Source of the DNA: Catajapyx aquilonaris
Lineage: Eukaryota
Direction: 5' to 3'
Length of the DNA stretch: 44,389 nt
Assembly: GCA_000934665.2 (NCBI GenBank)
Contig: JYFJ02003257.1
Span: 1 to 44,389 of the forward strand
In this document: positions 97 to 29,300 of the stretch, piece by piece
Numbering within the stretch: the first letter of the stretch is position 1
Layout: every line of letters begins with the position of its first letter
The notes under the pieces: model-generated
What the model saw: the letters and a program-made list of their open reading frames with translations, nothing else
Database searches by the model: none
Told to the model about the DNA's origin: nothing
Position numbers and translations under genes: made by a program

Positions 97-277
97 TTAA
101 CTTATAAAAATTACTGATAAAGATTGTTGCTACTAAGGAGTAAATGGATGGAGGGAAAAGAAGGGGTTTGGGGTCCAGGGTCGCCTATGCTATTGTTTCC
201 TATGGTGCACTACAGGAACTGGTGGGGGAAAGTATTGATATTCCATGCCACTAATACCGCCTTAATTTGCTTCTCAG

Positions 278-9536: not shown

Positions 9537-9575
9537 GTACCCTGATGATACTGCCAGAATGGGAAACTACGGTAC
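9537..9575 (+). other. Degenerate minimal type I hammerhead ribozyme-like relic
   Basis: GTACC-CTGATGA-TACTGCCAGAATGG-GAAAC-TAC-GGTAC. Both core boxes are present and the helix I arms GTACC/GGTAC pair. Helix II is truncated. Confidence 0.4.
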
Positions 9576-10439
9576 GCTTTATTCTTGGCCAGGTCAGTGC
9601 GCACCCGTTCCACGTTACGGTGCACTGATTGCTTCACCTGACATCATTTTTTGCGCGCGTATAATTTTCTGGTCCTTTGCCCTGAAGAGGATCCAGAGCG
9701 CGGCGATTGGTGAAGAACCATCACGCCATCGCCTACCAGCCACCGGACCGCAGAGCAGGTGAAGAAACCAGAACAACAAGTACCAACCCTTTATTACCAT
9801 GTACTGTAGGGCAATAATAATAATTGTAACAGGAAATGCTACCTCACGATATAAACTGCGCAGTACAATACGCCCACATATAGGCGAATTTCATGCGGCG
9901 TACCGGTGGTTGGTGCATCATGCCGCATAGGACCGGCGGCGGGGAAGGGCAAAGAGTGACATGTGCGCGAGGGAGGGCATATTATCGGAATGACGTCATA
10001 CCAGGCACAGGTTGGCATGCGTGGTCCGAGGTTCGGAAAGGAAGGGGAGGGGAGGGGAGGGCGAAAAAACCCAGCGGATTTTTCGGGGAGGGGCTCACCC
10101 GAGCTGAGCCTCTTTATTCGCTCTCGGCTGACAGGCTGGGTAGGTACTGCACCATTTGGTCCGATAGGGGAATGCGGCATAGGTGTATAGGTTGAGGAGG
10201 TGCTTGACGGAGCACGTGTTGAAGCAGGGGGTACTTGTTGCATCACGTGGTCCGGCTTCTCCGGCCAGTGGGTGCTGCTCCTGTCCGGATGCTGGGTACT
10301 GTTGCTGTGCATGGCCGGTTCGGTGCATGGGTGTACCTGTGGGTTGATTGGAGCCGGCGGGCGGCGGCCGGACCACGGTGCCGCCGCCGCCGGGATCGAT
10401 TATAATGGGATGGAGCGGAGTGTGCGCCGAAGGGACCAG

Positions 10440-10546
10440 CAGCCCGTTGTGGTCCGTCCGGCTGCATCCATCTGGCAACACTGAATTCGGTTTTAAAAAT
10501 AGCCATGTCCAAATTCGAAAATATTTGTCCTAATTACTCCTACAAG
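10440..10546 (+). promoter_or_regulatory. Probable Bmcp promoter and 5'UTR first exon at the edge of a GC/CpG-rich island
   Basis: GC-rich 9890-10480. TGGCAACACTG promoter-type motif at about 10473-10483. Candidate donor AAG|GTTCGG at 10546/10547 and acceptor ctgttgcag at 10869 leading into the ATG-containing exon. Confidence 0.4.
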
Positions 10547-11030
10547 GTTCGGGTGCCTGGAGCTGCTGCAGGTGTCTGGTGTTGCATTGTGTGCAGCCAA
10601 GGTGGATCTAATTAGATCACCTTGGGTGCAGCTGCATGATGAGGGTACAGTACAGCAGAATCCACTGTCAATATGTCATACTGCCTTTTCCATAAATGAA
10701 GACCTGCAGAGTTAATCACATGACATTCTGATGGCATGTGTTTTCCTATAATTAGAAAGAACTATATTAGCATGCAAGTGCTCGAGTTTGTTCACCGTAA
10801 TTTGATAGTGATGCAAATAGTGTTGGAAATGTGCCACACCTTGTCAATGTTATTTCTCTTCTGTTGCAGCTTGCATTATTTGTGGAGCCGAGACAGTGTA
10901 ATCAGTGAGCAGCCCCTGCACTAGTTACACGATTGGAGCGGCTTGCTTTCTGGGCAGTAGTGAGGTGTTATTTGACACGGAGAATAAGGTGACTGGGAAG
11001 TGAGTTGGAGTGGTGCATCTCAGAAGTGGG

Positions 11031-14000
11031 ATGGGCACACGCGATTGGCGCCCATTTATCTATGGAGGATTGGCGTCTTGCACGGCGGAGTTTGGTATGC
11101 AATGATGCAATTAGGCGATTTTCAATGATGATGTCAAATTTCATGCCAGTTCTTGTGTGTGCGTTTTTTAGGAACTTTTCCTATAGACACGACTAAAACA
11201 CGGCTTCAGATCCAGGGTCAGACGTTTGGAAGCCGGCATGAAGAAGTGAGGTACCGGGGCATGCTACATGCCTTGCTCAGAATCTCAAAGGAAGAGGGAA
11301 TACAGGCTTTGTACTCAGGGTATGTGTGGGGATATTTTTCATCTTCCATGTAATAATGATGATAACATGTTAAAACAATTTCATGTTATAAAATTATGTT
11401 CTGGTAACGGTAGCATAAATTTCCTAAGCACTAAAAAAAAATTTGATGCACCATAGCCTTACTAAGCCATAGCCTTCTTTGCAGGATATCTCCTGCTGTT
11501 CTCCGCCAGGCAACATACGGAACTATAAAATTTGGTGTGTACTACTCCTTGAAAAAGGTGCTTGTGAACAATCCTGAGGATGAAGACCTCATGGTCAATG
11601 TGTGCTGTGGAGTGCTGGCTGGCATGTTCTCCTCTGCAATTGCTAACCCGACTGATGTGCTTAAGGTGCGCATGCAAGCTGGGAAGTACCTGTCTGCTGG
11701 CCCTCAGGCCACCATGGTTGTTGAGGAGAGAAAGGGGCTGTACGAGAACTTCATGGAGATCTACAGACAAGAGGGTGTTCGAGGACTCTGGAGGGTACGT
11801 CCATGCATGTTCATTTGTAACTCCTTATTTTGAGAGCCGGGTTTGACCTGGTTAATCACAAGCAGGGAACATGTGCAGAGAAGTTTCAGAGTGTAACTTG
11901 TAGACTGAAGTGCTGTGTAATTTTCAGGGAGTGGGACCTACTTCACAAAGGGCAGCAGTCATTGCAGGAGTTGAACTTCCGGTGTATGATGCAACCAAGA
12001 GGTATTTCATCAACCTGGGAGTATTTGGAGATACCGTTCCCAACCACCTGGTGTAAGTATCCCTATTGGAATGTTGATGATAAGTGTTTGGGTTTGTGTT
12101 GTTTTGGGGAGGGAATTGGTACTCACAAAAGGAAACTTGTGTTTTGAATACACTGGTGTTTCACTGGTCTTGTTTACATGTGATAAGGAGTTAATCACAA
12201 GTGGTTATCAGGCATAACAGCTGTAAGGATAACATTAATTAGAAGGGAATTTACTTGTATTCCCCAATTGACATTAAAGTGATAAATGAAATTGCATTTA
12301 ATTATGAACATGCTGATGGTTATTAAATTTTTTAAACATTCTGGGACTACTGCCATGTAGGCTCACCATAGTATATACAATGATCTGATACATGGGCTTT
12401 CCATTTCTGTGCCAATGTTGTGTTTTGAATTTGCAGTTCTTGTTACAGGTTGACGCTTGACTATTAGTTTGCCCAGGCTTTTTAAATGCTGATTGAGAGT
12501 TCTTTGAACTGCATCTTCAAAATAAGGATTGGGTTTTCTGAGGGAAATAATGTCACTGCATGTTCTATAATTTGCTACCATTCCCATATTCTGTTTTGCA
12601 TTGTTGTGTGCCTTAGATGTGTACATGTTGCACAAGTGTAGTGTACGTACAGTGTTAACATTTCAGACTGTTTAAAGTGTACAAGTGTCAAGAGTGTGTG
12701 CATGAACAGTATTCCAGTTGATGACCTCTCCTCTATTATTAATAACCCATCCTTCATCCTCCATATTCACTTCAAAAAGAAGAAAAAAGAAAATTCAATC
12801 ATTAGTTAAGAAATCCCAATAATTAGCCCAATTGGAGTGCTGTTAGGGCTGTGTCCTGCTTCTGCTCTCACTCCGTATCTGTTACAGATTGCGTCTCCTC
12901 GGCGGTTAGCAGGGGAGCGCACGCCGAATCCCCAAACTTGAACTCGTGAAGGTATAGATTGGTACCATCACAGAACAGATACGTTTATTACGTGTAACAT
13001 CAATTTTTTTTAGCAATATGTATAAAGTACCATTATTTGTAAGAAGAGGTGAAGTGTACCTCTGATACATGGTACCAGAACGTGTTGAGGCCATGGGAAA
13101 AAGTATGGATGGGAGATGGGTTGGGGTCTGCTCTGCATGGGACAGTTGGGGAAGCAAGTGTTTTGGCTAGATACACATTCACACTAGTAATGCCGCCGGT
13201 TCCAAGTTTAGTGCATTTCTGAAGTTTTGCGAATATGACAGTATCCAGACACACATTTCTAGAAATTCAGGGCTTTTTAAGTGCAGGAAGTTGCCATGGT
13301 ATATGACAATCTGCCACAACTTTGCTTGTAAATGTGCGTGACTGTTTGAAAAACGTGAAGCGTGGCTAAGGCAGACATTACTCTTGCTTTCGACTCCTGA
13401 TGGTGCATGGAAGCAGCAGCCTCATCGCCAGCCTCAGACGGAGGGACACTTGATGGATGCCCACTGGACGCTGTCGTCACATGTTGGAAGTGGGAAATGT
13501 CTCTTGGCCATGCTACTTAGTAGTTACAATTCAATAAGAAATGCAGGCCAAAATGCTTGCTCTTTGGTTGATGGCAGGCTGTCATCAGGCAACTTTGAAG
13601 CAGGTCAGTGTAAGGGATAACATGTAAGGGATGATGAGGATCCGAAGTGTAGGAGACAGCCGCAGGCAGACCCCAAAATATTTCTTAGGCTGCTTGTCAG
13701 ACTTGGATGTAACTAACTTGTCCTCTTTTTCTTTCCCCCCCTTCCTCCTCTTTTCACAGCTCGAGCATGGTTGCCAGTCTGGCCGGAGCAGTGGCATCCA
13801 CCCCCATAGACGTCATCAGAGTGAGTTATACTCTACATTTAATTAATGTGCAAGTCACCTGATAAATATTAATGAAGTGAATATTTAAAATGAAAAATGT
13901 GATACTTTCAAACTTTCTCAAACTGCAAACATGAATGGATGGTGGGGAGAAAATGGGCAGGCAGGGGTGGGAGTCCGCTTCTATCTCCTGGTAGTTCAGA

Positions 14001-14329
14001 TGTAACTTTTGCAACTTTCTTGTGCTTGTATAAAAGCAGGTATTATTTCCACCTGCACATAAACAGATTCCAAGTGCTCTGCTCTACGTGGTTACTTTGA
14101 ATTTTAGACTCGACTGATGAACCAACGCAAGCTGAAGACTGCATCTTTGGCCACCACCAACCCTACAGCAGCTACAGTGTACAGTGGCAGTATGGACTGC
14201 CTGATGCAGACGGTTCGGAATGAAGGAATGAGGGCGCTATACAAGGGTTTTGTGCCTACATGGGTGAGGATGGGACCCTGGAATGTTATCTTCTTTGTCA
14301 CCTATGAACAGCTCAAGCAGCTTCATTAA
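11031..14329 (+). CDS. Bmcp: Mitochondrial uncoupling protein Bmcp / UCP5-KMCP1 (SLC25A14/SLC25A30-like), 309 aa, 6 coding exons
   Basis: Exons 11031-11094, 11172-11319, 11485-11794, 11928-12052, 13760-13820 and 14108-14329; all GT-AG with consistent phases (930 nt). Starts [38 protein letters not shown]. Three carrier signatures: [24 protein letters not shown]. Ends [28 protein letters not shown]. Confidence 0.95.
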
Positions 14330-14643
14330 AAAAGACAGTTTACCTGGAACCTTGAGTATGCACATGTACTTAAATGTTTTAATCCAGGAAGAACAGTATT
14401 ACTTTCTTTTTTTGTTGTTTTCCTTATGGTGTGAGGAGGTAGGCCTTGCTCCGAGATGTTGGATGTTATTTTATTCAGTCAAGGAAAATGTAACTGAAAC
14501 CTTAGAATGGCGTACATTTTCTCGCGTTCTGTTCGAGCATCAGTATTAAAAACTAATACATAGTCCTACCTGCTCTAAGAGAGAAATTTTTGTACTTAAG
14601 AAAGCGTGTATAAAGTGTGATAACTTATTGTCAATAAGTGACA

Positions 14644-14649
14644 AATAAA
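14644..14649 (+). terminator. Polyadenylation signal of Bmcp
   Basis: AATAAA 315 nt after the stop codon. Confidence 0.55.
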
Positions 14650-14686
14650 TAATGCACAGATACAGAAGGAGAAAGTTACTTGTACT

Positions 14687-14692
14687 TTTATT
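14687..14692 (-). terminator. Polyadenylation signal of EMC5
   Basis: TTTATT on + (AATAAA on -) about 160 nt past the EMC5 stop; a second copy lies near 14723. Confidence 0.5.
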
Positions 14693-14852
14693 GCAACTGT
14701 AATTATTTACATCTCCAGCTCTTTTATTATTATTTACAAATCATGTGCAAAGTGCTTTGGTTTGTGAAAACAAAACTTAATAATGACAATACACATAGAC
14801 ATACCTTCCCCCTCCTCCTGCCTTCCCAAAACAAATGTCAGAATAAATGATC

Positions 14853-16157
14853 TTATTCATCCAGCAGACTTTTTCCTGAAGGTGGCATGTAATTAGGTGA
14901 GAGCGCCTTCCCTCTATGGTTGAACACGTAGAATGATGGGCAGTTTTGCAAGGTTTCCCAAGTCCTAGAAGAAGAAACGATTAATGTGAAATTCAGCTGA
15001 TCTTCAGTTGCATTACAACAGTGGGTCCAATCTAGGCTGCTTTAACTTGTTCTCCCAAAATTGCATGTGCCAATTTTTTAAAAACGATAGCCTCACATTA
15101 GCAATGAACTCAGGTGTTAGCTTTATAGCTTCGAGCTAGGGTGCCAATGTAGAAAATGTACCATGATCTTCAGCCTGATCCATGAATGCGTAATTTTAGA
15201 TGCTTTTTAGGATTTGCTAGTGTATGGGAATCAAACCAAGAAAGGAATTACGGAAGAAGATACTCTTCTGAAATTGGAAGATATTAATTTTTCCCCTATG
15301 TAAAACGTAATGCAGGTCTAGCATGCTGAGGGGTAAACGAAAAAGAACTGAAGCGGAATAGTCTTGAAATTTGGACTGATAGAGAGCTGAAATTACAGGG
15401 ATGATAGCTAGTGATATCCAGGACATGGGCGGATATGTAGTGGCACCTCGCTTGTAAGGTTGCCATTTGGCATGGACTTATTAGGATTGTGCACTTGCAG
15501 AACTTGCCTCTTTTCTAATTCCACATTGGCTCTGATTTCCTTGAAGTCACCTGCGATGCACACTACACCATACATGGTTACAAACAAACTCAGAAGACCT
15601 TGCACGAAAATCTGCAAATAAAATAAAGGCAATTTTTCAACATTATGTAAAGAATGGAATTGTAGATACAGCAGTGTCTAAAAATATCATAGAATAAAGA
15701 ACCGATGCACTGGTGTCAGAAAATATTCGCTGGATTAAAATTTTAGAGTGACAGTGTGATGCCATCAACCATTATGGGAATCGAACTGGCTACCATGATG
15801 GTGGGTGGGCATGTCACTCCTGTTTTTGAGGAGCACGTCTCCACTCAAGAAGAGCAGTGCAGTGTATAGTGTGAGAGTACTCTGTCTTTTCTATCTGCAG
15901 TACACAAATATAATCTACTCTATGGGGGTGTGACCTGTACCTGTGTAATAAATAACCAACCCATCTGCTAGCCAGTCCAGAGCAAAGTTCTGCGTGATCA
16001 GACAAAAAGCAGTAACGCCAAGTGTCTCTTCTCCAACTCAATCAGACAATTTCAACCAGCTGCGGAATTCTAAGGCAGAAGGCAAGAAAATCTAGGCCTT
16101 CCTGCATTGACATGTACAACTTCTTTTTTCCTGATCACAGCAGAGTTGGTCTTTTAC

Positions 16158-16232
<75 letters not shown>

Positions 16233-19200
16233 TTCTGTGCCCAAGTTCTGATTCCATTTCTAGTATCATTAGTTCATTACGGTGGAATGCATATGCATCA
16301 TTGGGGCCGTCCAGACGGGCCAACCTTAGCCGCGGCTGGCCACGGCCCTGGCGTCGGCCCCGGCTTGCGGAGCCACGGCTGGCCACGGTACCCGTTCAGA
16401 CGGGCACATATTTTAATAACAGCCACCCGCATTTGTAATAGTGGCCGGTAGTCATGGCAGCGACGAAAAACAAGTGACGCGCAGTATCCGTCGCCGAGGC
16501 CAAGCCGTGGCCAAGCAGCGAGCCAACTTCCAGGAAGTCGGCCAACTTGGCCAACTTCTGAGCCGTGCCCTGGCCGTGGCCGTTGCCGTGTGAACCGTCG
16601 CGGCCTCGACCAGCCGCGGCTGGCCGCGGCTAAGGTTGGCCCGTCTGGACGGCCCCATTATTCATGAAACTGGCATAATAGCTGACCAATTTGCAATTCA
16701 GCATAAAAGTTGTTGAAGACTTAGCAACAGAGATATGATGTGAAATAACTCACATCTAGAGGGAGCGACGTGAACTCCTGCTCAGTGATGCGCAGGTATG
16801 AGCGATCTGGAATAAAGCAGTAATTGTTAAAAAATTGCTCCATCAAGTGCACTGCTAACAAAAAAAAATGAAAAGTCACAGTAAACCAACATGCACTGCT
16901 ATAAAGTGCATAGCAACAGAAAAGCAGTGTGGCAGCAAAACAAGCATCAAACTACAAATAGGACTGTCTACATTACCTGCCAAGCAATGCATGTTGGTAG
17001 GCTGGATTTTTTTTTCTTTTTGCTGTTTTCAGGTTGACAGGTGAAGGGGGAAGTCAGGTTAATTTGGATGATTTGTACTGAATGGACGGATGGATTCAGG
17101 ACATGGTGTTGCCATGGCTTCCCCAGGCCACTTTGGACTCTTGCAGCCATTGCCTAAGGTCACTGGTCTTTTCCAGGAGTGTTGGTTGTACCGAAACGCC
17201 AGGAGTCAGGCCATGGGAAACCCACTCACTCCATGACGGTGAGCGAAATGGACGGAGTAAAAACGGTGGAACTTGCAATGCAGCACCAGGCATAGGAGGA
17301 ATTCCTGCCGGTGGCATTGTTGGTGCTGAGTACAAGGTTGACCATGAGCTGGACAACGGCCTTGAATGGTGTAGGTGTGGTCTAGCATTGGAAGCAGGTG
17401 GTGCTGAAAATGGTGGCATGTTGGCACGGATATCCTGCATTTGGTGACTGAGGCGACGGAGGGATGATATTATCTCTTGGGATTTTATTTTCTTACGGCT
17501 TCCACGATTACGTCTGAAGTGATATCGTACACCATGACTCACCCCAGAGCTGGGTGAATCTGATTCAGTACCTACTGTTTCTATCTCATCTTCAACATCA
17601 CCTTCACTGTCAGATGTAGTAGATGGTATATCGGTTTGGGTAACTTTGGTTGCAACAGATGCAACTGGACGTGATTTGCTATTTCGAATATATTCTTTGG
17701 CATCTTGAACGGCTTCTTTAGGAGGCGGAACCTTGGATCTGGCACCCTTCTCCACCACTCCCTCACTAGCAGATCCATTTCCCATCAGGTCATGCTCCTT
17801 TCGTTCCAACTTAGCCTGTTCTCGTTCCAGCCTCTCTCTTTTCTTCTCAACCTCATCTAGCAACTCCCTCAACCGCCCACCAGATTCAAGCAGGTATGTT
17901 TTAGCTAGTCGGTTAAGTGCTTTCCCTCCATGAGCAGCAACCTCCTCCTCCATGTGAGCCAGTTCCTCCTTCTGGCGCTGCCTCACTTCCTCCACCTTCT
18001 CATGGTTCTCTTTCGCTGCAGCAGCAGCCTCATCTTTCCACCGCTGGCCAATTTCTTCCTTCTCTCTGTCCCACCTACAAGCCATTGCAATCTTCTCCTC
18101 TTCCCATGCATGTTCCATTATGGCTCGCTCTTCCTCCCACTTCTGCCTAATCTTGGCCTTTTCAGCGTCCCAATCATGCTTCAGGCTCTCCATCTCCAAC
18201 TCCCATTTCTTTCGCTCTTCTTGGACACACTGCTCTCTCTTTTCATGTTCCTTCCTAATGGCTTCTTCTGTTTCTTTGGTAACTTTTGCCCTCTCATGTT
18301 CAAGACGTTTAATTTCCTTATCCCGAAGCTGGTCAACTTCAGCACGAATTTTGCCTAAGGACTCACGCAGAACAGATCGCAGCTCTTCTTCCTCCTTAAC
18401 TAACTCTTGATGCAACTCCTTCTCAAGGGCTTTGCGTTTTGATGAAACTTCTTCCCGAATCTGCTTCTCAGCTTCCTCTAACTGTCTTTTAACCCTTTCC
18501 TCAGAATCTTCATTATCAACTGGCTTTCTAACTGGTGGGGATGACACAGGGGCCAGTTTTGAGAGTGATGGGGGTGACACATTAGCCACCTCTGAGGATG
18601 ATGGTGGTGATGTTGCAGTAGTATTCTTCACAATTGAACTTGCCATGCTGTCAGCTTTTGATGCCCCTGCTACCACTACACTCCTGGGTTTTGGAACTGC
18701 TGCCACTCGGATGGCTGGTTTTGATGGTGAAGATGGGGTGATGGAGCTTACAACTGATGTCACAATTGGTGCCTTAGGTGCTACTGCTGATAACGGCCGT
18801 AAAACTGCAGAGGGCTTCTTCCAAGGATCATGGACCCCTGAGATTGGAGGTGATAAGTCTGCAGCATCCTTTAGTAGCTCCAGTCCACCCTCTTTTTCCA
18901 CCTCCTCATCTGTTGTGTCTTCGTCAGATTCTTCCTCCTCTTCACTGGCATCAAACTTAATCTCATCTACATTCAAATTGAACTTTATGCTCTTCCTTTC
19001 AGCTTCCATCTCTTGCGCCTTCCATTCCCGACGCTCAGCTGGGGTCAGGTCACGTGGGTCCATGTCCCATAATCGTCGCTGCTGGGTTGACTCACCTCGA
19101 AGTATACCACGTGGTGCTGGATCTGCTTTAGATGAGACCACATCAATGTGACGGGCAGCTTCCTCTGCTTCATGGCTTGATATCCCCTTATCCAAGTTGG

Positions 19201-21050
19201 TCTGTGACCTCAAGAATGAGGCCCCTGCTCCGCCTAGAGTCAGTCCGCGTGGCTTAGAAAGTGGGTCAAGGCGCAAACCACTTGGGGGCCGCCCCACAGG
19301 TGGACGAAGTGGCTCCAGGTGCCTGGGAAGCATATCTGATGATCGTTCACTACAATCAGTTGGATCAAGGTCCTCCAAACTTCCCAGCAAGTCCTCTTTG
19401 AGAGAAGTAGCAGAATCGTCACAGTTCCGAGTACGACGCACAGCCTCACGATACACCTCATCCAGTGGATGATCCCACCTGACAGGAGGAGGCAACAAGA
19501 AGTTAAAGTGAGACTATCCAACCTCTCATACATCAAACACCAGTCACACCACATGAAACTCTACAGTAGAGCCAACATGTGACTGTGTTCTCCAAAAATT
19601 AAAACTTTTTTTGCATACAAAGGGTAACATCAAACAAAAATATGCATCCTACAAGTTTATTGGCTGTGGTACTACTTTTCCTTCTATTTTTAATCAGCTT
19701 GATAAAAACCATAGGAAACGTCTCGAGAGTACTTCTCTTGAAAATGCTGGAAAATACTGCAACATCAGGACAAACCTGACACTTTTATACTCTCTTTGGC
19801 ACTGAGAGCAAATGCTATGCTCGCAATACTATCTGTTCCATTCCTATTTTAACATCCCAAGAGATGTAACCTAAGAAAATATTTTACCAAGTCACATTCT
19901 GACATGTTGAAGAGTAACTGAATAGCATTTTTTCTTGAGGCCTACAGCTTGAGAAGTTTCAGTGGTGTGAACCTCAGTATCAAAATGAAAATTATAGGAA
20001 ATAACCTGCTCTCTCCAGTGTCAGAGTTAAAGTAGTAGTAGTGCCCTAGCGACTTCTCAAAAATGGGGCTCCAACCATTGGGCAACTTCTGGGTCAGGCC
20101 TCGCTGAGCCAGAGACAGGAGATGGGGCTCTCTCTCAGGGTCAATCCCAATGCGGACAGCATACTCCAAAACCTCCTCATGACTGGGAGGTTTCACTCCC
20201 TCAAACACCTCCTTACAAAGGACACTGCTGGTTTCACTGCTGTGGTTGTGAGTGTATTCTTGGTCCTCAATAGTAGCTTGCTTCCTTTTGGCAATGTCGG
20301 CCTCAGCGAGGACCATGGCAGGGGGCTAGTGGGATAGGGAGAAGGGAGAGGGTGGGATATGAGGATGGAAACACAGGCCTTCCTCTGGGCAGCATTTTCT
20401 GAGCGCCTCAGACACACACAACCTCCTAGCTCAACAGCATGCAAGTCTGATTTAAGTCTTTTGTTATATGTTAGTACATGTATCTGAAAAACAGAATGTC
20501 CTATTAATTTAGTTCATTTGCTGTATATTAGGCACCTATGATGTTACAAGTATGGATCATACAGGCATTGTTCTTGTACACTAAAATTTCCAAGTAGTAA
20601 CTAGTTAGTCACTGTCAACACCCATCGAAATCATTACAAAATTTAAATGGTGTTACCAATGATGACATGCACTGTCTTTGTAAAATGGAACATTGTGAGT
20701 TGTGCGAGACACTGCGTCTACATCCTGGGTGTGTGCAACGTGCCCTTTTCCCCAGTTCCAAGCCACGCCGTCCACCTAGCATGCATGCAATCAGGCAAGG
20801 ATCGATTGGCCTCTCCCGCGCTCCCTCCCTACGTTCCAATCGCATGCAGGCACCATCCATGCGCCACAAACCGAAGCCTCCCCACACCCCATTCGAACCC
20901 GCCCGGCACCCCCGCCCGTGCAGGTGCATCCCCGGGCCGCCCCTCCCGCCCGTGGGCAGACTACTCACGCTGCGCCGCCGAGTAGGCCGAGTGCAGGAGG
21001 GACACCAGCCCCACGGCGAACACCAGCTTGTACAAAAACGACGCCATCAT
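14853..21050 (-). CDS. EMC5: ER membrane protein complex subunit 5 / membrane magnesium transporter 1, 116 aa, 4 exons
   Basis: Exons 21050-20969, 16806-16754, 15611-15508 (GC donor AG|GCAAGT) and 14964-14853 join to MMASFLYKLVFAVGLVSLLHSAYSAAQHRSYLRITEQEFTSLPLDIFVQGLLSLFVTMYGVVCIAGDFKEIRANVELEKRTWETLQNCPSFYVFNHRGKALSPNYMPPSGKSLLDE*. Hallmark MMGT1 motifs LHSAYSAAQHR, LPLDI and PSFYVFNHRG are present. Confidence 0.95.
16158..16232. repeat. (AAT)25 microsatellite
   Basis: Perfect AAT run in EMC5 intron 2; it explains the poly-N and poly-Y spurious ORFs. Confidence 0.97.
16303..16656. mobile_element. Young GC-rich MITE, PIF/Harbinger-like
   Basis: Perfect 34-bp TIR GGGGCCGTCCAGACGGGCCAACCTTAGCCGCGGC at both ends. 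3-bp target duplication ATT (16300-02, 16657-59). Internal GGCCACGG/GCCGCGGC repeats. 354 bp. Confidence 0.9.
17096..20316 (-). CDS. CEP164: Centrosomal protein CEP164 (WW domain plus coiled coil), about 897 aa, 2 coding exons, nested in EMC5 intron 1 on the same strand
   Basis: Exon 20316-20006 (gccATGG, in-frame TAG just upstream) joins exon 19478-17096 via AG|GTTATT...CTGTCAG|G. The N-terminus PSHEEVLEYAVRIGIDPEREPHLLSLAQRGL..LPNGW..YYYFNSDTGESRWDHPLDEVYR matches the conserved CEP164 N-terminal/WW region. An acidic tract, a Ser/Pro-rich linker and a long EK-rich coiled coil follow. Confidence 0.88.
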
Positions 21051-21523
21051 GGACTACTCACTAAAACCAGGCTGGGAAATAACGCCCAATCGGGGGAGAC
21101 GGCAGCGCTTGGAAGTATCCTGACTGTCTACTCTGCCCTGGGCAACACGCTGGGCTCTCTCTCTCGGCGGGACAGCCTGACACCCAGGATATGACATGCG
21201 TAGCCCATGCCCGCGATTACTACTAATTAATAATTATGACAATCCCACTAGAATAACTACCAGTAAATGAAAAGTTACCTGGCGGTAGATGCCTCCTGGT
21301 TTCCGTCCGTCGCTTCACTGACTTCTGAATTTAGTTGTTTCTGCCTAAATACTGTAAAGTAAGAAGGCTGCCCTGTCCCCCCTTCGAAGCTAGATTACGA
21401 TTGATTATTTGCAGCCAGGTTGCCAGCAGCAACCCAAACAGTTAGATCAAATGTAGGGTCCTTGGCAACCGGCATCAGATATACCACCGGCAACCCCCAT
21501 TTTCTTGGGAGATCCTGCTCAAA
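21051..21523. promoter_or_regulatory. Bidirectional promoter region (EMC5/CEP164 on -, CFAP97D-like on +) with RFX X-box-like motifs
   Basis: 473 bp between divergent ATGs. GTTGCCAGCAGCAAC at 21419-21433 fits the X-box consensus. Further GGCAAC half-sites end at 21146, 21469 and 21494. Confidence 0.6.
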
Positions 21524-22348
21524 ATGATGTCCAGAAGAGAAGACTTGCTGGTTAAACCATGGATCCGGAGACGGTACCAGGATCATCGGAAAAAGGTAAT
21601 GATTACCTCTTTTCTGAAGGACCAAATGGTTGAGTCACGGCCTCATTAAAATGGCCATTAGCATGAATCATATCCGGTACCGGTACGTAACGAGGGTGCT
21701 GAAATCGATACTTTTGGCAGGTGGAAGCGGCCCTGCCTGCGGTGGACGCTGGTCCTCCTGCCTTCCGGCCACATGTCTGTCGGAAAATGAAAAAGCTTCA
21801 AATGGAAGAGGAGCGGCTGGCTCAGATTGCGGAGGACAACCTGAGACTTTTGGAGAGGACTTCCGCGATCATGAAGGCTAAGGGAATGGTCGATCATCAC
21901 CTTGGTCCGGTGCCGAGGTAGCCTACTTGATTTACTGGTGACAGGTGCAAATTATTATTACACTAATTAATGATTTTCTAAAAGCTTTTTGCGGCGTGTG
22001 GGTATCTACCTTCCACGAGAGCCTAGTGCTAAGGATGAACCTTTAAAAACTGCCATACATACGAATGACGAGGAAATACAAAAGATGATTGCTGCGGCCA
22101 CTTCCAGAAAGGGACGGTGCAGTGCTTGTGTTCGGAAGGGGCAAGAAAAGGCAAGACATGTCTCGCATTGTCGCAATAATTGGCAAAATAATACTTATGC
22201 GACTTATTAATTACAGAGCAAAAGCAATACATGTCCACCTACTCCGTTCATGCTGAAGCAACCTCGAAAGAAGGCTCAAGATAAACCCAGCATGAAGAAG
22301 CGACATAAGATCTCTCTTCCTAACATATCGACTAGCCAGAAGCTATAA
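21524..22348 (+). CDS. CFAP97 (KIAA1430)-domain ciliary/flagellar protein, CFAP97D1/D2-like, about 188 aa, 4 exons
   Basis: Exons 21524-21595, 21721-21917, 21985-22150 (GC donor AAG|GCAAGA) and 22217-22348. Sequence W..RRYQDHRKKVEAALPAVDAGPP..PHV..KMKKLQMEEERLAQIAEDNLRLLERTSAIMKAKGMVDH matches the family pattern. The last exon is less certain; the alternative is read-through to the stop at 22210. Confidence 0.8.
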
Positions 22349-23343
22349 ATCAATACATATCAGAAACTTGCATTCAAGACTCTTGCATGTTGCAATCTAA
22401 TGTGTCGGAGTGGGTTTGAAAGCGTGCGATCTTTCACATTATTGTTTTGATACCGTACTTATTAGAAAAATGTGTGATTTGCGAGTGACCATGTACGAAT
22501 TTGATACCAACCTATTATTACCTACTGCGTCATTAATTTCTGTCGCCTAATGTTCGTTGTTTTTACTTGTTTTTGCAGTTTCATAGTCTACGTAGAGGCC
22601 ACGAATCGCCTTGCTATGTTCACGTTTGATGTGCAATATTGTGTACAGTAGTACAGCAATTGCATGCTGACTAGGTATTTTGCATGTTGCATTATTAAAA
22701 TTCTTTGCAAAAGGGAGTGCTTAGCCCGCAATATTCTATTAATGATCTTACAGTGTCACCACGCATGTGTTCCTCAAGAGCTGGATGCGTGGCTGGATGG
22801 AAGGACGTAAAGTATACGGTATGAATACCGTATTCCCAAGGGACAAGAGAGTGATCCATGTTTCCGCCAGGTGTCTCTAAAATCCCTCATTTTTGGCAAG
22901 TGGTGCGCTCTGTTGGCGAGGGAGTGGAGTGGCGTCAAGAGCCGAGGGAGAGATTACATGAAGGGGGGAGGGAGGGAGGAGGCGCGGTGCGGTTGGCCGC
23001 TGCTGGTTTCCGTCTCCGGAGAGTGTGAGTGAGTGTGTGTTGTGCGTGTGTCACACATCTCGCGGTCAATCCTCGCCGGGGACACAGCCATCCAGTGCAC
23101 CTGCACCATGCCCACTTTGGACGCCCTTGGGACGCCCGCCACCATCCGTGCGCGACCATAACATGTTTCCCGCCTCAACGTGCTGCTCCTGCCACCGCAA
23201 GACGACCGCGGCGGGCGTGGGTCACCCGCTGGACTGAAAGGACTCGCCTGACTGTCGAGAGAAGGGACTCAGGGCGTGTGTGCCCGGGGCGAAACAAGCC
23301 CTTCAGTTGCAGGGAAAAGGGACCTACAGAGAGTGCATCAGGG

Positions 23344-26300
23344 ATGGCGGAGAGGAAGTTCACCAAGGGCCTGAGCAAGCCAGGGATGGCCGCCCAGCTC
23401 AGGGAGACCGTCTCGCAGGTCGTCAGGGAGACAACTGTGCAGGTCGGTATGACACACGCACAGTCGCACACCGTACAGCCAGCCTCCCGTCTTTCTGGCA
23501 GAGGTTATTGGTTAGGTACTGCCCACTGTGCAGTCCATTTCGTGTTTAGGAGGGGAGGACGGGCTTCGCTTACCACACACGTGGGGGACGGACCATCCTG
23601 GCCACCCCAAATTGCATTTGTACGGAATTATTCAGGCGTGGTCTTGTTTATCTCGTGCAGGTGATGCTCTATAAACTGCCGATGTTGCAACGCTGCTCGT
23701 ATGTGATATAGTAAAATACCTGCCAGTCATGCACAAATTGTGCTCCTGTGCAATATCTGGTAGCTATGCTGCTATTGTTTGGCCAAATCGTACACAGGTG
23801 GTGCATGTTCTCCCTTGGTACTGATAAAAGGTGTATCATCCATCCAGACGATTGCAGTTCAATTCCGTTAAAGGAACAAGTAATTCTTGTAGTGAATGCC
23901 ATACTCTGAAATGTCTGGTCAACAGCCCAGATATAATGTACACTTTTCATAAAGTTGGATTTCAGAAATTGAAAGTTACAAGGTTGCCTGTACAAAGGGT
24001 TAACGAGTACACCCACCTATGGGTGGACAATTTCCAGAGCCACATGAAATTTTGCAGGTGCAGGGTCATGGGGATGTTGTCTTCTTTATGTTTTATACCA
24101 TCATGAATGTTTGGCTGCACGTTTCCGCAGGACATGATCTATTCAAGGCAGTAGTCCAATTGCGGTGTGTGTTGTTGGATGGTGGCCAGTAATCTTATGC
24201 AATAATTAACAAAGTTCATGTGTAATGCCTTCACACTCTTTAGTAGCAGGAAAATATAAAGGCCCAGAGCGTGCATTATAATCAAATGAAGCCAGGATGC
24301 GAATAAACGTGGGTGTGCTCAACAGCTGTGGTGCAAAAACTTACCTAACAGGTTAGCATCTTCAGTACTTCCAAAATGGGACATGACAGATGGATTCTTG
24401 AAGGCCACATCGAACATAAGGTGCTCATGTGCAGGTGAAGTGTGGGTGACACGCAGGTATCAAAAGTTGACAGTGACTGATGTGTCACAGGAATATACAC
24501 CGCATTGACTGCCCGTGAAGTTGTAAAGAGCAGGAGGTCCCTGAAAGCAAGGGCAACAAACATTGGAACCCTCCTTTTTTTCGTTTGTTTATCTGCGAGC
24601 CTGTCTGCTGACATAATCACAGGACAAGGTTCCCAGCGTGGAGTAACTGGTCTGGAAATGCGGAGATCTTGCGCAGATTATGACTTTCATTTGGGCTTAC
24701 CTGCATTCACCTGCCCTTGCTGGTTAATGAGGGAAGCCCTTGCTCGTTGTTTTTGTTCTCCAACCTCATAACTTGGCCTGGAATCTTCCCACACTTTGGA
24801 AAAAAAAGAAAGGGCAAGGTCCGCTGCTTCAGGGGCAGTGGTTTTGGAGGTCAGACGCCGCCCATGTAAATTCAAACGTGCTGGAATTTCACTGCTCGTT
24901 AAAAGTCATGCAACAGGTGCAAATTGTACATTATGCATTCCTAGCCACAGAGGTCTTCATGTGGAATTAACATTGCGACTGTGACTAGTCAGCTGAAGCA
25001 GATTGAGAGAGAGAGAGATGTTAGTGTTGAGTGTCTATAGATCGTTCAGGATGACATGTCAAGGCCCACTCTTTATTCGCCATCACTCGAATAGAGCGAT
25101 GGTGTCCACTGATGCGGAATAATTGTGTCTGCCTGTGTTTCAACCGTAATTTGAGCGCAAGTGTTAAATATCGTAAGCTGCAGGCGAGTTTAATATCACA
25201 AATCACATGCAGTGTTAATTCAATTAACTGTCGAAATTTGATTACTGGGTGGCAAATTAAACAAGCCGTGGCTGTGACCTACAGTGTTCAAAAAGGGGGG
25301 ATTGGCTCATTAGTTGCACCAGCATATTCAGTGTGTACCCTTGTTTTGTCCTCTAATTATACCTATGCTAGTTGGTTTTATTTATAGATGAACCAAACTA
25401 AGTGTAATTTTACTAAAGTAAATGAGCTTTTTAATTTCACTATCATTATGGGGATAATTTGATATTTGGCACTGTATGCACTGCTCATGGATCAGGGGCT
25501 GCAGATTCAATTAGCACTTATTTAATGTGACGTGCATGATGTTAATGAAGTAGTGACAGGTAGTTTAATTTACAAGCATGTGTATTGGCGTGCAGTAATA
25601 TTATCAGCACTATAAGCGTAAGTTTGAAGGACAATGTGTAGAAATTTTGATACCGATTTGGGATAGTGATTTTGCTTTTTCCAATGGCCTCATTCATTGG
25701 ATATCGAAACATCTGTTTAGCTCAAATTTCTGTGTTGTTATTATTAGGAAGACAATTAAGGACACTGGTTTGTAGCTGTTTCAGTTCACTAGACTGCGGC
25801 ATAGAGAAAGCAAGTCATCTGAAACTGTTCTGGCACGAGGCTCCTTATCCCCATTCACATACCGACCCACATTTCTGATTCCTTTCTGGATTCGTCTATA
25901 GCGGTGAAAATAATTCAAGGAAAAATACATATTCAGAGATGGAAAGTTTCCGCATGCATGGTATCACCTACTTGTCACTCGTCATTGTTACCGTTCATCC
26001 ATAGAACTTTGTAGCGTATTGGTGAAAGGGATCCAAACAAAAGCTTAGAGATCGCTTATTGACGATATCCTGATCATTAACTCCTGGAGAAGAAACTAAA
26101 GCCGTTTAGGAAACGAGGTGTTTAATGACGGAAATGTGATAGTCTGCAATTGTTAAACCTCCCCCAACATCCTCTTTTTTTCTGGCGCACCTTTGCGGGC
26201 TGCAGGTATATTACCTTTCCCGACGCACATGGCGCATGGCGGGAATCGATCTCCGGCCGGGTTGGGTTGTCGACCTAACAGGGAAAATAAACTCTGCCAG

Positions 26301-29300
26301 TCTGCATCCGGACTCGCTCCCGGTACGTCGTCTCCGCTCCGGGCTCGGGCCGCCACGTGACCGTGTTTTGGCCGCCCGGATCGAGGGAGGTCAAAACTGA
26401 CCGCGACTAACGGGAGTTCCGCCGCATTCCGATCACGCGACGCGAGGATTGCCCAACCCTCCCCTTCGAAGCATACCCCACTAGAGGCGATTCCTATTAA
26501 CTCCTCCGGGGCCGTCAATGAAGAGAGACCACTTGTCAAATTGAGTTCCACGGTCGGGGAGTTGATTTGCATGCCAATCGTGGCCTTCCCCCTATACCAC
26601 CACCCTCCTTACTCAACCACACCTCCCCTTGTCAGGAGGTTCTTGCCTTCCAATTTCGTTGGGCCATTAGCTACGTGCGGATAGGTTGTGTAAATTACGA
26701 ACTCTTGGGCGCGAGGTGAAAATATGCAGGGGATGGGAAAACCTGGCGTGTTGAGGAAATTTTGCCTGTTGCCTTTTGTGTATAGTGCTGGGTCAATGTA
26801 CAGTGCCGGATCGTTAGTCACAATCATATTCAAGGTAGGAAAACAGACAGTGTTGTAGTGCCCAAATTGGATAAACACTGGAGTGTGCAGAGATTTCGAC
26901 CTCCCTCTCCGGCGGTATATATAGGTTTGTAATGTAATTATACTTGAGAGCTGTGGTCAGCAAAGTTTGCCAAGTTTCCTCCGTCATGTCACGCCGAGTC
27001 GAACGGATAATCCGGAGCCTACATTCGCAGTCTCGACAGGCGGATTTGCATTTGTTAATGGCAATATCCGGCCCGTCCGTGTCAGCAATATGTAGTCGGC
27101 AAATGAGAAGTTAGGATGTCGCTGAAGGCCCCATCATCGGAGAAGAGGTGGCCCCTCTGGCGCCAATCGAGCGAGGGCCGACGGGTGTCCTCCGCCTCCT
27201 CGTCCCCGTCAGGGTCACCAAACAGCCTGTGTCGAAACCCCTTGACCTGCACCAAGAGAGGCTTGAGCTGGCTGGCCATCACCCTCCGAAGACACGTCTA
27301 CTCCTACCCCGAATCGCCTGCCGGTCAGAATGGTGACCTACACCTCCGCTCTTGTCTGAAGGCTTCCAAGAAGGTACGGAACGATGGGTTTATAGGGGGC
27401 CTGCTTTAAATTCAGCATCCTGGCCAAATCTTCACTGACCCAATTGACCAGCATTGTTGCGGGCTGCGCAAGCCGGTTTGCACCGATACCGCACTGTACA
27501 TAGTTTTTAATCATCAATAAACGCCTGGAGATATACACTGTGAAAGTCCGCAGCGGACACACCTGACATCCGACATGCATTCATTTGAGTGTGTGCGCTC
27601 CACATGCCCACCCGAGGGCCTATTATATGGTGCCTTTTTCCCCGGGAAGCGTCCAGTGATTTTTCGCTCGACGTCCATGACACTTGAGTCAACGACCCAC
27701 TCAGTTGTCGAGCGCACCTCGTGTCGGATGCAGCAGCGGCTGGTCCTCTGACAGATCACCCCGATGGGGAAGGCGCCCAGTCCCAGGGTCCACTTCACCC
27801 TGCCATTACGCAGGATTAGGAAGAAAAAAGGGGTAAGGCGAGACCAGCAGGACCTGGGGGTAATTGGTCTCCGGGAAGGAAAAGTTGCGAGAGTCGTTTT
27901 GCTGGAGAGTAGGTACGGGACTGGATGCTGGTCCGGATTACGAGCTAGGAGACCAGGGACCGTAATTTCTACCACTGATATTGGATCTCGGAGGGGGAAA
28001 AGCCTGCTGGTGGTGGGACATTTTTAAAGGGGTTTCCGGAACATTTTGTTTGATTTGTCTTGGGAGTGCTGCTCGACATGGTGCAGATACGGGGCTATTT
28101 TTGGGATCGACGCTGTAATCAGTTCTGGGTATTAAGCTGTTTTTACGCAAATAAGTTGCTCCATATTAGGTGTGGCTGTGGAGTGTTGCCTGTACCTGAC
28201 GCAAAAGCAATTGGAGGTGATGCAGATTTCATGCGCAATTACCGTACTTACTGGCTGAAATGGCACAATTTCACCAAACGGTTGTCCCTGATGGTTATAC
28301 CGAAAAATATAGTTCATTATTGGTTAACGAGATGCTTCCGTGACGTGACTGTCGGCTGATTGAAACATTGAAAAGAGTGCGGATAAATATTTGCTCGATA
28401 ATATAGTGTCCATTCAAGCCCGACATGATATTGGTTTGCCAGCAACAGCGTAAATGAAAATGGCAGACGAGCTTGAACTGCTATAGTTAACTTGCCGTGT
28501 CCATGGGTGCCCCTTTTTTTAGTACGTCCATGTGGATTTGTTTAAACGCCAACTAGGAGATTACGCTGCATCAAGTTGATGGGTCACGCACGTCATGAAA
28601 CTATGCCCAAGACAAAAGGGAATGCTTTAACACCCACGTGTGCCAAACATGACCCAAAAAACATATCGAATCAATGGCGACTTTATATTGGGCCTGAGAA
28701 GTATATGGACGGCGCCTGCATGTCTTATTCAGGCGGCTGACATTCAAGAATTCAGACGTCTTTTACTATTCATGCCTGGACAGTTTCAGACCTTCGCTTA
28801 CGGTTTTAGGTCTAGGTTTTATCGACTTCCGTACATCGTCGTTTATGCCAGTTTAATGTAAGTGAAATCACGCTGGTTGTGAATATCAAGGGCATATTTT
28901 TTATCTAGTTATTATTTAAAAGGCGGGGCTTGGTGCTGTCTTTTTCAGCCATTTGGAAAGCGCATGACACGCGAAGTCATTTACTCGCACGATAACAAGC
29001 GATGCAGTTCGCACAGTATACCACAACCAAATGATTGGTCTCATTTTACGAGCCGCATATTACATCTGCATGGGGGCATGTATTTCAATCGTCGTTTACA
29101 GTTACTTTATTGTATCAAACCGCGACATAATTCGAGGCAACAGAATTGTGCAGAGCCCTGCTGGATCGGTAATATTGCTGGAAAACCGAGCTGCCGGAAT
29201 AAGTTGATTCATTAATGCATATACAATCGAGTACCCCAGGGTATCACTGCAGAGCCGGAGCAAAGACCCGGTTGCCGTTTGACTAACAAAAATCCTTAAT

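What the first reader, a model, noticed from the sequence alone, without database searches (positions are those of the whole stretch)
14853..21050. CEP164 embedded same-strand inside EMC5, apparently as a spliced-in cassette of one shared transcription unit
Seen in sequence: the entire ~897-aa CEP164 ORF lies in EMC5 intron 1 (20968-16807) on the same strand. A strong acceptor (ttctgtttttcag|AT, exon start 20483) sits 167 nt upstream of the CEP164 ATG and only ~485 nt below EMC5 exon 1, leaving little room for a separate promoter. After the CEP164 stop (17096) I find no AATAAA/ATTAAA before EMC5 exon 2. There is instead a good donor CAG|GTAATG at 16977/16976, 170 nt above the EMC5 exon-2 acceptor. 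Inference: one promoter and one poly(A) site may yield either EMC5 mRNA (exon 1 to exon 2) or an mRNA of exon 1 + CEP164 exons + EMC5 exons 2-4. A splicing switch would then choose between an ER insertase subunit and a centriole distal-appendage protein. Same-strand nesting with shared first and last exons is much rarer than antisense nesting.
Basis: partly seen in the sequence, partly recalled or inferred. Interest (0 to 1): 0.85.

Follow-up and report, generated by a model that had tools for sequence, protein, structure and literature searches.

The report
CEP164 gene nested inside EMC5 intron
A complete centriole-appendage gene (CEP164) sits, in the same direction, inside the first intron of a small ER-insertase gene (EMC5); that layout is real but is a common kind, and the idea that the two share one transcript could not be tested because no RNA data were available.

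Summary
The anatomy is confirmed. EMC5 (4 coding exons, 116 aa) matches insect and human EMC5 along its whole length. A complete 897-aa CEP164 orthologue in 2 coding exons lies on the same strand inside EMC5 intron 1.

The interpretation (one promoter, one poly(A) site, CEP164 as a spliced-in cassette) could not be tested. No RNA run was listed, no genome is held, and no related arthropod locus could be fetched.

Sequence alone is equivocal:
- The acceptor at 20483 and the donor at 16977 are good, but sites that good are expected 0.38 and 0.27 times by chance in their intervals.
One is EMC5's own strong AUG; another opens a reading frame that overlaps the CEP164 start.

Shared-leader nested loci are already known (ChAT/VAChT, CPNE1/RBM12). 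Interest is modest.

The parts
20969..21050 (-). EMC5 ATG exon (82 nt of CDS, 27 codons + 1 nt). Donor AGC|GTGAGT at 20969.
   Evidence: Weak Pfam MMgT match of the piece alone (14.4 bits).
16807..20968 (-). EMC5 intron 1 (4162 nt), which holds the whole CEP164 coding sequence.
   Evidence: the exon 1/exon 2 junction SAAQ|HRSYLRITEQEF is colinear with insect EMC5.
20006..20316 (-). CEP164 coding exon 1 (ATG at 20316 in context GCCATGG; 103 codons + 2 nt). Encodes the N-terminal domain and most of the WW domain.
   Evidence: WW, 21.7 bits; human CEP164 N-terminal domain 7nwj_A, E 5.6e-12.
19479..20005 (-). CEP164 intron (527 nt), which splits the WW domain between ESR and WDHP.
   Evidence: donor score 4.1; acceptor 19478 score 9.9.
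17096..19478 (-). CEP164 coding exon 2 (793 codons + stop TGA 17098-17096). Coiled-coil middle and conserved C-terminal motif.
20484..20499 (-).
   Evidence: score 9.1; 26 of 2587 AG sites score as high; 0.38 expected in the interval.
20326..20358 (-). A 30-nt tract that is 87% pyrimidine, then TAG; the exon would start at 20325, 9 nt before the ATG.
   Evidence: only 4 of 1274 YAG sites are as pyrimidine-rich; matrix score 6.5.
16971..16979 (-). Candidate 3'-UTR donor CAG|GTAATG (last exon base 16977).
   Evidence: score 7.4; 41 of 2390 GT sites score as high; 0.27 expected in 289 nt.
16807..17095 (-). Interval between the CEP164 stop and EMC5 exon 2. None of 11 poly(A) hexamers; A-run at 17021-17007.
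16754..16806 (-). EMC5 exon 2 (53 nt).
15508..15611 (-). EMC5 exon 3 (104 nt), followed by a GC-AG intron.
14853..14964 (-). EMC5 exon 4 with stop codon.
14687..14728 (-). Two AATAAA hexamers (starting at 14728 and 14692), the likely EMC5 poly(A) signals.
20700..21300 (.). CpG-rich, promoter-like domain around and just downstream of the EMC5 ATG exon. It continues to about 23500; CpG depletion begins near 20700.
20899..20951 (-). Cluster of four GGGCGG hexamers in the first 70 nt of intron 1. They could be GC boxes of a promoter or G-run splicing enhancers.
   Evidence: 4 of the 15 in the window.
21273..21281 (-). Strong donor-like site CAG|GTAACT (last exon base 21279), 230 nt upstream of the EMC5 ATG. 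It may mark the end of a non-coding leader exon.
   Evidence: score 8.5; 29 of 2390 GT sites score as high; no ATG in 21420-21275.
21419..21433 (.). Palindromic X-box-like motif GTTGCTGCTGGCAAC between EMC5 and the divergent CFAP97-like gene.
   Evidence: the only strict match in the window; 0.22 strand-hits expected.

Best explanation
This is an ordinary same-strand host/nested gene pair. An intact, presumably functional CEP164 orthologue occupies intron 1 of EMC5.

EMC5 mRNA is made by splicing 20969 to 16806 across the whole CEP164 gene (shown by colinearity).

I infer that CEP164 has its own mRNA. It would start at its own transcription start inside intron 1. The likeliest place is the CpG-rich, GGGCGG-bearing first ~270 nt (20968-20700), with a short leader spliced onto 20325 or 20483. 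It would end at a weak, non-canonical 3' end in the A-rich stretch after its stop.

CEP164's acceptors (20483, 20325, 19478) are at least as good as EMC5's exon-2 acceptor. Some EMC5-promoter transcripts will therefore probably splice into CEP164 exons. I read those chimeras as by-products that are unproductive for both proteins, not as the main CEP164 mRNA.
For: Both coding sequences are complete.
- EMC5 is colinear with P0163-P0165 and with human EMC5.
- The CEP164 N-terminus matches the human CEP164 N-terminal domain (E 5.6e-12). It also matches the N-termini of proteins named CEP164 in Diprion, Schistocerca and Cimex.
- The motif LLEKTSDLRQWLQESKVAW lies 8 residues from the window protein's end. 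Alignments covering it end 4-22 residues from the end in 14 of the 16 relatives in which it aligned (53 and 88 in the other two).

A leader carrying EMC5 exon 1 would place EMC5's AUG (A at -3, G at +4; a 33-codon reading frame) before the CEP164 AUG. It would also place up to three more AUGs there, one opening an overlapping 30-codon reading frame.

There is room for an internal promoter. Windows 21000-20701 hold 12, 8 and 5 CpGs per 100 nt and four GGGCGG.

No fused EMC5-CEP164 protein appeared among the 150 listed relatives or among the 3 EMC5 hits of 112-120 aa.

Nested pairs in the same orientation are common in mouse and human (PMC11694760, passages).
Against: No poly(A) hexamer of 11 kinds lies in the 289 nt after the stop. 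Shuffles give zero in 41% of 2000 trials, and 31% of 882 sliding windows have none. An own 3' end there would therefore need an unrecognised signal.

Only 3 such hexamers lie on the sense strand before EMC5's AATAAA, against 8.7 +/- 3.0 in shuffles (2.4% of 500 shuffles at or below 3) and 14 on the opposite strand.

A good donor (16977) sits in the 3' UTR.

CpG depletion starts ~390 nt upstream of the CEP164 ATG, so there is no separate CpG-rich domain at the CEP164 5' end.

A very pyrimidine-rich acceptor-like site lies 9 nt before the ATG. A strong donor lies upstream of the EMC5 ATG. Together they would allow a shared AUG-free leader.

No core-promoter motif (TATA, Inr, and others, recalled consensus) was found in 21450-20300, apart from one loose Inr-like TCATTT at 21270 and the GGGCGG cluster.

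Nothing here is RNA evidence.
Confidence: 0.42

Rival explanations
1. Full cassette. One promoter and one poly(A) site serve both genes. A shared 5' exon is spliced either to EMC5's next exon or to the CEP164 exons. CEP164 mRNA then continues through 16977>16806 into EMC5 exons 2-4, which act as its 3' UTR. The reader's exact version (AUG-bearing exon 1 joined to 20483) is a subset that I put at about 0.07.
For: There is a single CpG-rich domain. There are acceptor-like sites at 20483 and 20325. Donors lie at 20969 and 21279, and at 16977. No poly(A) hexamer occurs before exon 2, and such hexamers are depleted down to EMC5's AATAAA.
Against: Each signal is individually within chance. With exon 1 as the shared exon, the CEP164 AUG follows five upstream AUGs. 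With 20325 as acceptor, the EMC5 reading frame overlaps the CEP164 AUG out of frame. I did not find in print any case of a whole gene borrowing both ends of its host, but my searches were not designed to be exhaustive. There is no RNA evidence.
Confidence: 0.13
2. Shared promoter and 5' leader only (ChAT/VAChT or CPNE1/RBM12 type). Transcripts start at the EMC5 promoter, either at a non-coding leader ending at 21279 or inside exon 1 downstream of the AUGs. They are spliced either to the EMC5 coding exons or to the CEP164 ATG exon. CEP164 mRNA ends at its own weak site before 16807.
For: The donor at 21279 scores 8.5 (29 of 2390 as high), and 21420-21275 is ATG-free. EMC5 exon 1 has no ATG after its two start codons. 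The acceptor-like site at 20325 would give a leader free of upstream AUGs. An X-box-like palindrome, the recalled motif of ciliary-gene promoters, lies ~140 nt upstream of 21279. Precedents exist: PMC7524744 (passages) and PMC2568002 (abstract, sections 5 and 12).
Against: A donor as good as 21279 is expected 0.26 times by chance in 400 nt (from, 58 counts). The X-box may serve only the divergent CFAP97-like gene. No poly(A) hexamer is available for an own 3' end.
Confidence: 0.2
3. Shared 3' end only. CEP164 has its own start in intron 1 but no poly(A) site. Its transcripts splice 16977>16806, or read through to the exon-2 donor, and finish with EMC5 exons 2-4 and the EMC5 poly(A) signal.
For: (no hexamer, then depletion). 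(donor 16977 scores 7.4, comparable to the real EMC5 exon-2 donor at 7.9). The first hexamer downstream is ATTAAA at 16417, inside a transposon-like insert beyond exon 2.
Against: Zero hexamers is not rare by chance (41% of shuffles). The donor is within chance (0.27 expected). An A-rich stretch at 17021-17007 might support a non-canonical site (inference).
Confidence: 0.15
4. Spliced-leader trans-splicing. If the organism belongs to a lineage that trans-splices, CEP164 mRNA could be cut out of the EMC5 pre-mRNA by adding a spliced leader at 20325 or 20483. Trans-splicing is recalled for some crustaceans; I read nothing on it here.
For: An acceptor-like site with no obvious partner donor lies 9 nt before the ATG and is very pyrimidine-rich. 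There is one promoter-like domain.
Against: The taxon is unknown beyond insect or crustacean affinities. No spliced-leader RNA or any Rfam family was found in the window. This is pure inference.
Confidence: 0.04

Closest known systems
Host/nested gene pairs (a protein-coding gene inside an intron of another)
   Same: CEP164 lies wholly inside one intron of EMC5. As reported for mammals, it is in a 5'-most intron (PMC11694760, passages).
   Different: Nothing defining differs. The particular pair was not found in the papers searched. One search gave 1 paper and one search gave 2, all unrelated by title or abstract.
Cholinergic gene locus (ChAT/VAChT), for example in Ixodes ticks
   Same: The nested ORF lies in the first intron of the host on the same strand. 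In Ixodes an 82-bp exon 1 is shared, and alternative splicing gives either mRNA (PMC7524744, passages).
   Different: Sharing there is shown by RT-PCR; here it is untested. VAChT is not reported there to use ChAT's 3' exons. The two proteins here have no known common pathway.
CPNE1/RBM12 and other human promoter-sharing pairs
   Same: Two unrelated coding sequences lie behind one promoter and share 5' UTR exons. The choice between them is thought to depend on splicing and on use of the upstream gene's poly(A) site (PMC2568002; abstract, sections 5 and 12).
   Different: RBM12 has its own AAUAAA. Here no such hexamer follows CEP164. Sharing here is only a possibility.
Transcriptional interference and forced exonization at nested genes
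   Same: Host transcripts are expected to splice into nested-gene exons when good cryptic sites exist (PMC3192792, abstract only).
   Different: That study was in human cells. Whether it happens here is inference from splice-site scores.

Membership tests
EMC5 / MMGT1 (Pfam PF10270 MMgT) | Full-length colinear similarity to known EMC5 proteins | tested here: met
   Gap-free alignment of the 116-aa spliced product with P0163-P0165. Those three carry PF10270 and are 73-83% identical to exon 4. Exons 3 and 4 match human EMC5 6ww7_E at 46-77 and 80-101.
EMC5 / MMGT1 (Pfam PF10270 MMgT) | Score above Pfam's gathering cut-off | tested here: inconclusive
   Only single exons could be submitted. Exon 1 alone scores 14.4 bits against a cut-off of 23; exons 3 and 4 alone give no match. 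The spliced protein was not scanned.
CEP164 | N-terminal domain with a WW motif, like the human CEP164 N-terminal domain | tested here: met
   7nwj_A 'Centrosomal protein of 164 kDa', E 5.6e-12, query 33-103 against chain 18-87. Pfam WW scores 21.7 bits, below the 26.9 cut-off, because the exon ends inside the domain.
CEP164 | Best relatives are proteins named CEP164, matched at their N-termini | tested here: met
   One search gives single-stretch hits such as P0030, P0039 and P0035. One search names them 'centrosomal protein of 164 kDa' in Diprion, Schistocerca and Cimex, and 'Centrosomal protein' in a barnacle. Some relatives carry unrelated automatic names.
CEP164 | Conserved C-terminal motif close to the protein's end | tested here: met
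   The motif LLEKTSDLRQWLQESKVAW lies 8 residues before the stop. Alignments covering it end 4-22 residues from the end in 14 of the 16 relatives where it aligned, and 53 and 88 residues from the end in the other two. Individual E-values are weak (6.5e-06 to 2.6).
CEP164 | Localisation to centriole distal appendages and TTBK2 binding | not testable with these tools
   Function is recalled from the literature on human CEP164. PDB entry 7o3b is a TTBK2-CEP164 fusion.
Shared-leader nested locus (ChAT/VAChT, CPNE1/RBM12 type) | Nested ORF in a 5' intron of the host, on the same strand | tested here: met
Shared-leader nested locus (ChAT/VAChT, CPNE1/RBM12 type) | mRNAs of both genes carry the same 5' exon | not testable with these tools
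   No RNA run was listed. No genome or related annotated locus was available.
Shared-leader nested locus (ChAT/VAChT, CPNE1/RBM12 type) | The shared exon is untranslated | tested here: not met
A possible non-coding leader ending at 21279 would meet the feature, but it is only a candidate.

The most novel reading that the evidence does not exclude
A single promoter domain carries an X-box-like ciliary motif and is shared divergently with a CFAP97-like cilia gene. It drives one transcription unit in which a splice choice from a common leader yields either EMC5 mRNA or a CEP164 mRNA. The CEP164 mRNA has no poly(A) site of its own and borrows EMC5 exons 2-4 as its 3' UTR. A whole protein-coding gene would then behave as an alternatively spliced cassette of an unrelated housekeeping gene, so each pre-mRNA could make only one of the two proteins.
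Probability: 0.13. Interest if true: 0.6.

Novelty: new member of a known kind. Interest (0 to 1): 0.3.

Why it matters
If the two genes are simply nested, this is routine genome anatomy. Its main use is as a warning for annotation: gene predictors may fuse or truncate EMC5 and CEP164 here.

If CEP164 really uses EMC5's leader and/or its 3' exons, the locus would add an arthropod example to the small set of promoter-sharing nested loci. With sharing at both ends, it would be an unusual case in which output of a housekeeping ER insertase subunit and a cilium-initiation factor are mutually exclusive per transcript. That would be a directly testable splicing and polyadenylation competition.

Tried and rejected
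RNA evidence: no RNA holder was listed for 14500-21500 (cap spent), so read laying could not be used.

Own genome: none is held.

Earlier findings of the scan: nothing at this place, in relatives, or by sequence. The word search gave only unrelated notes.

Word-indexed protein search:
- It was blank for the large CEP164 exon (7999 candidates, none at E <= 0.001).
- It was blank for the N-terminal exon among longer proteins (115 candidates).
- For EMC5 exon 4 it found only 3 ordinary EMC5 proteins and no fused form.

Fusion test: blastp of the spliced EMC5 against the 150 listed CEP164-type hits gave 0 matches at E <= 1e-3.

Synteny via metagenome contigs: 3 loci were found. Only L001 carries clear CEP164-like exons (5449-5559 and 5792-5884). 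No EMC5-like match lies in its 5.4 kb upstream; the best tblastn E on that locus is 7.5. This is uninformative because the organism is unknown and distant, and EMC5 exon 1 encodes only 27 residues.

Retrocopy idea (A-run at 17021-17007 as a poly(A) remnant): the best flank repeat is one 8-mer, about what chance gives, and the gene has an intron. Dropped.

Core-promoter motifs (TATA, Inr, DRE and others, recalled consensus): only one loose Inr-like TCATTT at 21270, plus the GGGCGG cluster, in 21450-20300.

CCAAT/ATTGG: 4 in 21450-20300, against a window rate of 2.34 per kb, so not enriched.

Rfam and tRNA scans of the window: no match.

Literature: CEP164 with 'nested gene' gave 1 paper, on ALMS1. 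CEP164/EMC5/MMGT1/intron gave 2 papers, on retinal EMC genes. CG9170 occurred in none of the 10 papers listed of 291. CEP164 with X-box and RFX gave 6 papers, which I did not read.
Full report
**What is there**

On the minus strand, four coding exons (21050-20969, 16806-16754, 15611-15508, 14964-14853) join into a 351-nt reading frame of 116 aa.
- It aligns end to end without gaps to EMC5 / membrane magnesium transporter proteins of a mayfly, a termite and a cricket. The alignment includes the exon 1/exon 2 junction (SAAQ|HRSYLRITEQEF).
- Exons 3 and 4 match human EMC5 in the solved EMC complex (6ww7_E residues 46-77 and 80-101; E 4.7e-4 and 4.4e-5).
- Intron 3 has a GC donor.
- EMC5 mRNA must therefore splice from 20969 to 16806 across a 4162-nt intron.

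Inside that intron, on the same strand, lies an ORF of 897 codons in two exons (20316-20006 and 19478-17096). The intron splits a WW domain between ESR and WDHP.

**Is the nested ORF a complete CEP164?**

- The first exon matches the solved N-terminal domain of human CEP164 (7nwj_A, E 5.6e-12).
- A HMMER scan of 1.84 billion representatives gave 962 proteins at E <= 0.001. Among the 150 listed, many single-stretch hits match at their own N-termini. Examples are query 28-102 against residues 7-81 of P0026 and query 30-102 against 9-81 of P0030.
- Eight of these were looked up. Diprion, Schistocerca and Cimex entries are named 'centrosomal protein of 164 kDa' and a barnacle entry 'Centrosomal protein'. 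Other entries carry unrelated automatic names.
- The window protein starts about 20 residues earlier than most relatives and has no other in-frame Met. The ATG at 20316 sits in the context GCCATGG.
- At the other end, the motif LLEKTSDLRQWLQESKVAW lies 8 residues before the stop. Alignments covering it end 4-22 residues from the end in 14 of the 16 relatives where it aligned, and 53 and 88 residues from the end in the other two. These short matches have weak individual E-values.
- The coding sequence is therefore complete at both ends and needs no EMC5 exon for coding.

The best hits suggest an insect or crustacean. I did not try to go further.

All are present at the stated coordinates. I ranked them with a simple position matrix whose frequencies I recalled from memory (human-like). 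The ranks are more trustworthy than the scores.

| Site | Score | Sites scoring as high | Expected by chance |
|---|---|---|---|
| Candidate acceptor 20483 | 9.1 | 26 of 2587 minus-strand AG | 0.38 in the 652 nt between exon 1 and the ATG |
| Candidate donor 16977 | 7.4 | 41 of 2390 GT | 0.27 in 289 nt |

- Real sites in the same ranking: acceptors 19478 at 9.9, 15611 at 9.4, 14964 at 11.6 and 16806 at 7.4; donors 16754 at 7.9, 20969 at 6.0 and 20006 at 4.1. The candidates look like real sites but are not individually beyond chance.
- The two canonical poly(A) hexamers are absent in 77% of 2000 shuffles of the interval.
- All 11 hexamers I tested are absent in 41% of shuffles and in 31% of 882 sliding windows.

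**What argues against the exact model**

EMC5 exon 1 is not a leader. It carries two AUGs, the second with A at -3 and G at +4, and 27 codons of a hydrophobic N-terminus.
- Joined to 20483, that reading frame runs 33 codons. It is followed by two mini-ORFs and by a 30-codon reading frame (A at -3) that overlaps the CEP164 AUG out of frame.
- Joined to 20325, the EMC5 frame itself overlaps the CEP164 AUG out of frame.
- Such an RNA would translate CEP164 poorly.
- In the precedents I read, the shared exons are untranslated: the 82-bp exon 1 of tick ChAT/VAChT (PMC7524744, passages) and the 5' UTR exons of CPNE1/RBM12 (PMC2568002, abstract and sections 5 and 12).
- 'Little room for a promoter' is not compelling. 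The first ~270 nt of intron 1 are CpG-rich (12, 8 and 5 CpGs per 100 nt). They hold 4 of the window's 15 GGGCGG hexamers within 48 nt. Such G-runs could equally be intronic splicing enhancers (recalled).
- Same-orientation nesting as such is not rare in mouse and human (PMC11694760, passages).

**What argues for some sharing**

- The window shows a mosaic of CpG-depleted gene bodies and CpG-rich promoter or intergenic domains.
- One depleted block runs from about 10500 to about 20700. It covers the neighbouring carrier gene, all of EMC5 downstream of exon 1, and all of CEP164 including 390 nt upstream of its ATG. The CpG-rich domain (about 20700-23500) is the only promoter-like domain available to both genes.
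- Between the CEP164 stop and EMC5's AATAAA (14728, 14692) the sense strand has only 3 of the 11 hexamers. Shuffles give 8.7 +/- 3.0 (2.4% of 500 shuffles at or below 3), and the opposite strand has 14. The first hexamer is an ATTAAA at 16417, inside a transposon-like insert in EMC5 intron 2. A transcript that passes the CEP164 stop therefore meets no usual signal before EMC5 exon 2. Its strong donor would then be expected to pull the transcript into exons 3 and 4 (inference).
  - An acceptor-like TAG at 20327-20326, 9 nt before the ATG, follows a 30-nt tract that is 87% pyrimidine. Only 4 of 1274 YAG sites in the window are as rich, and the real CEP164 acceptor is among the top 6.
  - A donor CAG|GTAACT at 21279, 230 nt upstream of the EMC5 ATG, scores 8.5 (29 of 2390 as high). 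ATG-free sequence lies upstream of it, and a modest acceptor at 21071 lies before the EMC5 ATG.
- An X-box-like palindrome lies at 21419-21433. It is the only strict match in the window, against 0.22 strand-hits expected. It sits between this candidate leader and a divergent Hemingway/CFAP97-domain exon. The X-box consensus and its link to ciliary genes are recalled, not tested. The motif may serve only the divergent gene.

**Weighing**

None of this is RNA evidence, and every signal was found by looking for it. My estimates:

| Reading | Odds |
|---|---|
| Ordinary nested pair with separate mRNAs; chimeric host-into-nested splicing as a by-product (cf. PMC3192792, abstract only) | 0.42 |
| Shared leader only | 0.20 |
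| Shared 3' exons only | 0.15 |
| Trans-splicing | 0.04 |
| Anything else | remainder |

**What could not be done**

- No RNA run was listed and no genome is held.
- No related arthropod locus could be fetched.
- Two word-indexed protein searches were blank.
- No fused EMC5-CEP164 protein was seen.
- The one metagenome contig with a CEP164 relative shows no EMC5 upstream but is uninformative.
- I found no paper on this gene pair.

**Verdict**

A weaker form, a shared promoter region and/or shared 3' end, remains a live possibility worth one long-read RNA experiment. As it stands, this is a new example of a common kind of gene arrangement.

Noticed in passing
window 20326-20358 (-): A very pyrimidine-rich tract ending in TAG lies 9 nt before the CEP164 ATG. 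It is a better-placed candidate acceptor than 20483 because it would skip all three upstream AUGs of the 20483-20317 segment.
   Followed up: partly
window 21071-21351 (-): A strong donor-like site lies at 21279, and acceptor-like sites lie at 21351 (score 9.6) and 21071 (score 5.4), all upstream of the EMC5 ATG. EMC5 may have a non-coding leader exon and a 5'-UTR intron.
   Followed up: partly
window 21419-21433: The palindrome GTTGCTGCTGGCAAC resembles an RFX X-box (consensus recalled). It is the only strict match in the 44 kb and lies between EMC5 and a divergent cilia-type gene.
   Followed up: partly
window 21703-21921 (+): An exon with a Hemingway/CFAP97 domain (Pfam PF13879, E 9e-09) is divergent from EMC5. 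Two cilium-related genes (CFAP97-like and CEP164) therefore flank one CpG-rich region.
   Followed up: partly
window 20899-20951 (-): Four GGGCGG hexamers lie within 48 nt, directly after the EMC5 exon-1 donor. That is 4 of the 15 in the window. They could be promoter GC boxes or G-run splicing enhancers.
   Followed up: no
window 16302-16657: A 356-bp element with 45-nt terminal inverted repeats (93% complementary), MITE-like, lies in EMC5 intron 2. It has high CpG content and is the only copy in the window. It carries the first ATTAAA downstream of CEP164.
   Followed up: partly
window 16158-16232: A perfect (AAT)25 microsatellite lies in EMC5 intron 2.
   Followed up: no
window 15502-15507 (-): EMC5 intron 3 begins with GC (AG|GCAAGT), making it a GC-AG intron. 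The junction is fixed by gap-free alignment to insect EMC5.
   Followed up: yes
window 14729-17095 (-): Poly(A)-type hexamers are depleted on the sense strand: 3 observed against 8.7 +/- 3.0 in shuffles, with 14 on the opposite strand. This covers the stretch between the CEP164 stop and the EMC5 poly(A) signals.
   Followed up: partly
window 1-44389: CpG observed/expected shows a mosaic. Depleted blocks lie at about 500-2000, 10500-20700 and 35000-44000 (gene bodies). Near-1 blocks lie at about 7000-10500, 20700-23500 and 25500-34500. This pattern is typical of gene-body methylation in invertebrates (recalled).
   Followed up: no
window 121-849 (+), 11447-14329 (+), 35189-41216 (+): Neighbouring genes: an ankyrin-repeat/SOCS-box protein end, a mitochondrial carrier convergent with EMC5, and a DOCK C/D-type exchange factor.
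   Followed up: no
L001 5449-5884: A metagenome contig carries a CEP164-like N-terminal domain. Its intron lies after the WKP residues, not inside the WW motif, so the intron position differs from the window's.
   Followed up: no
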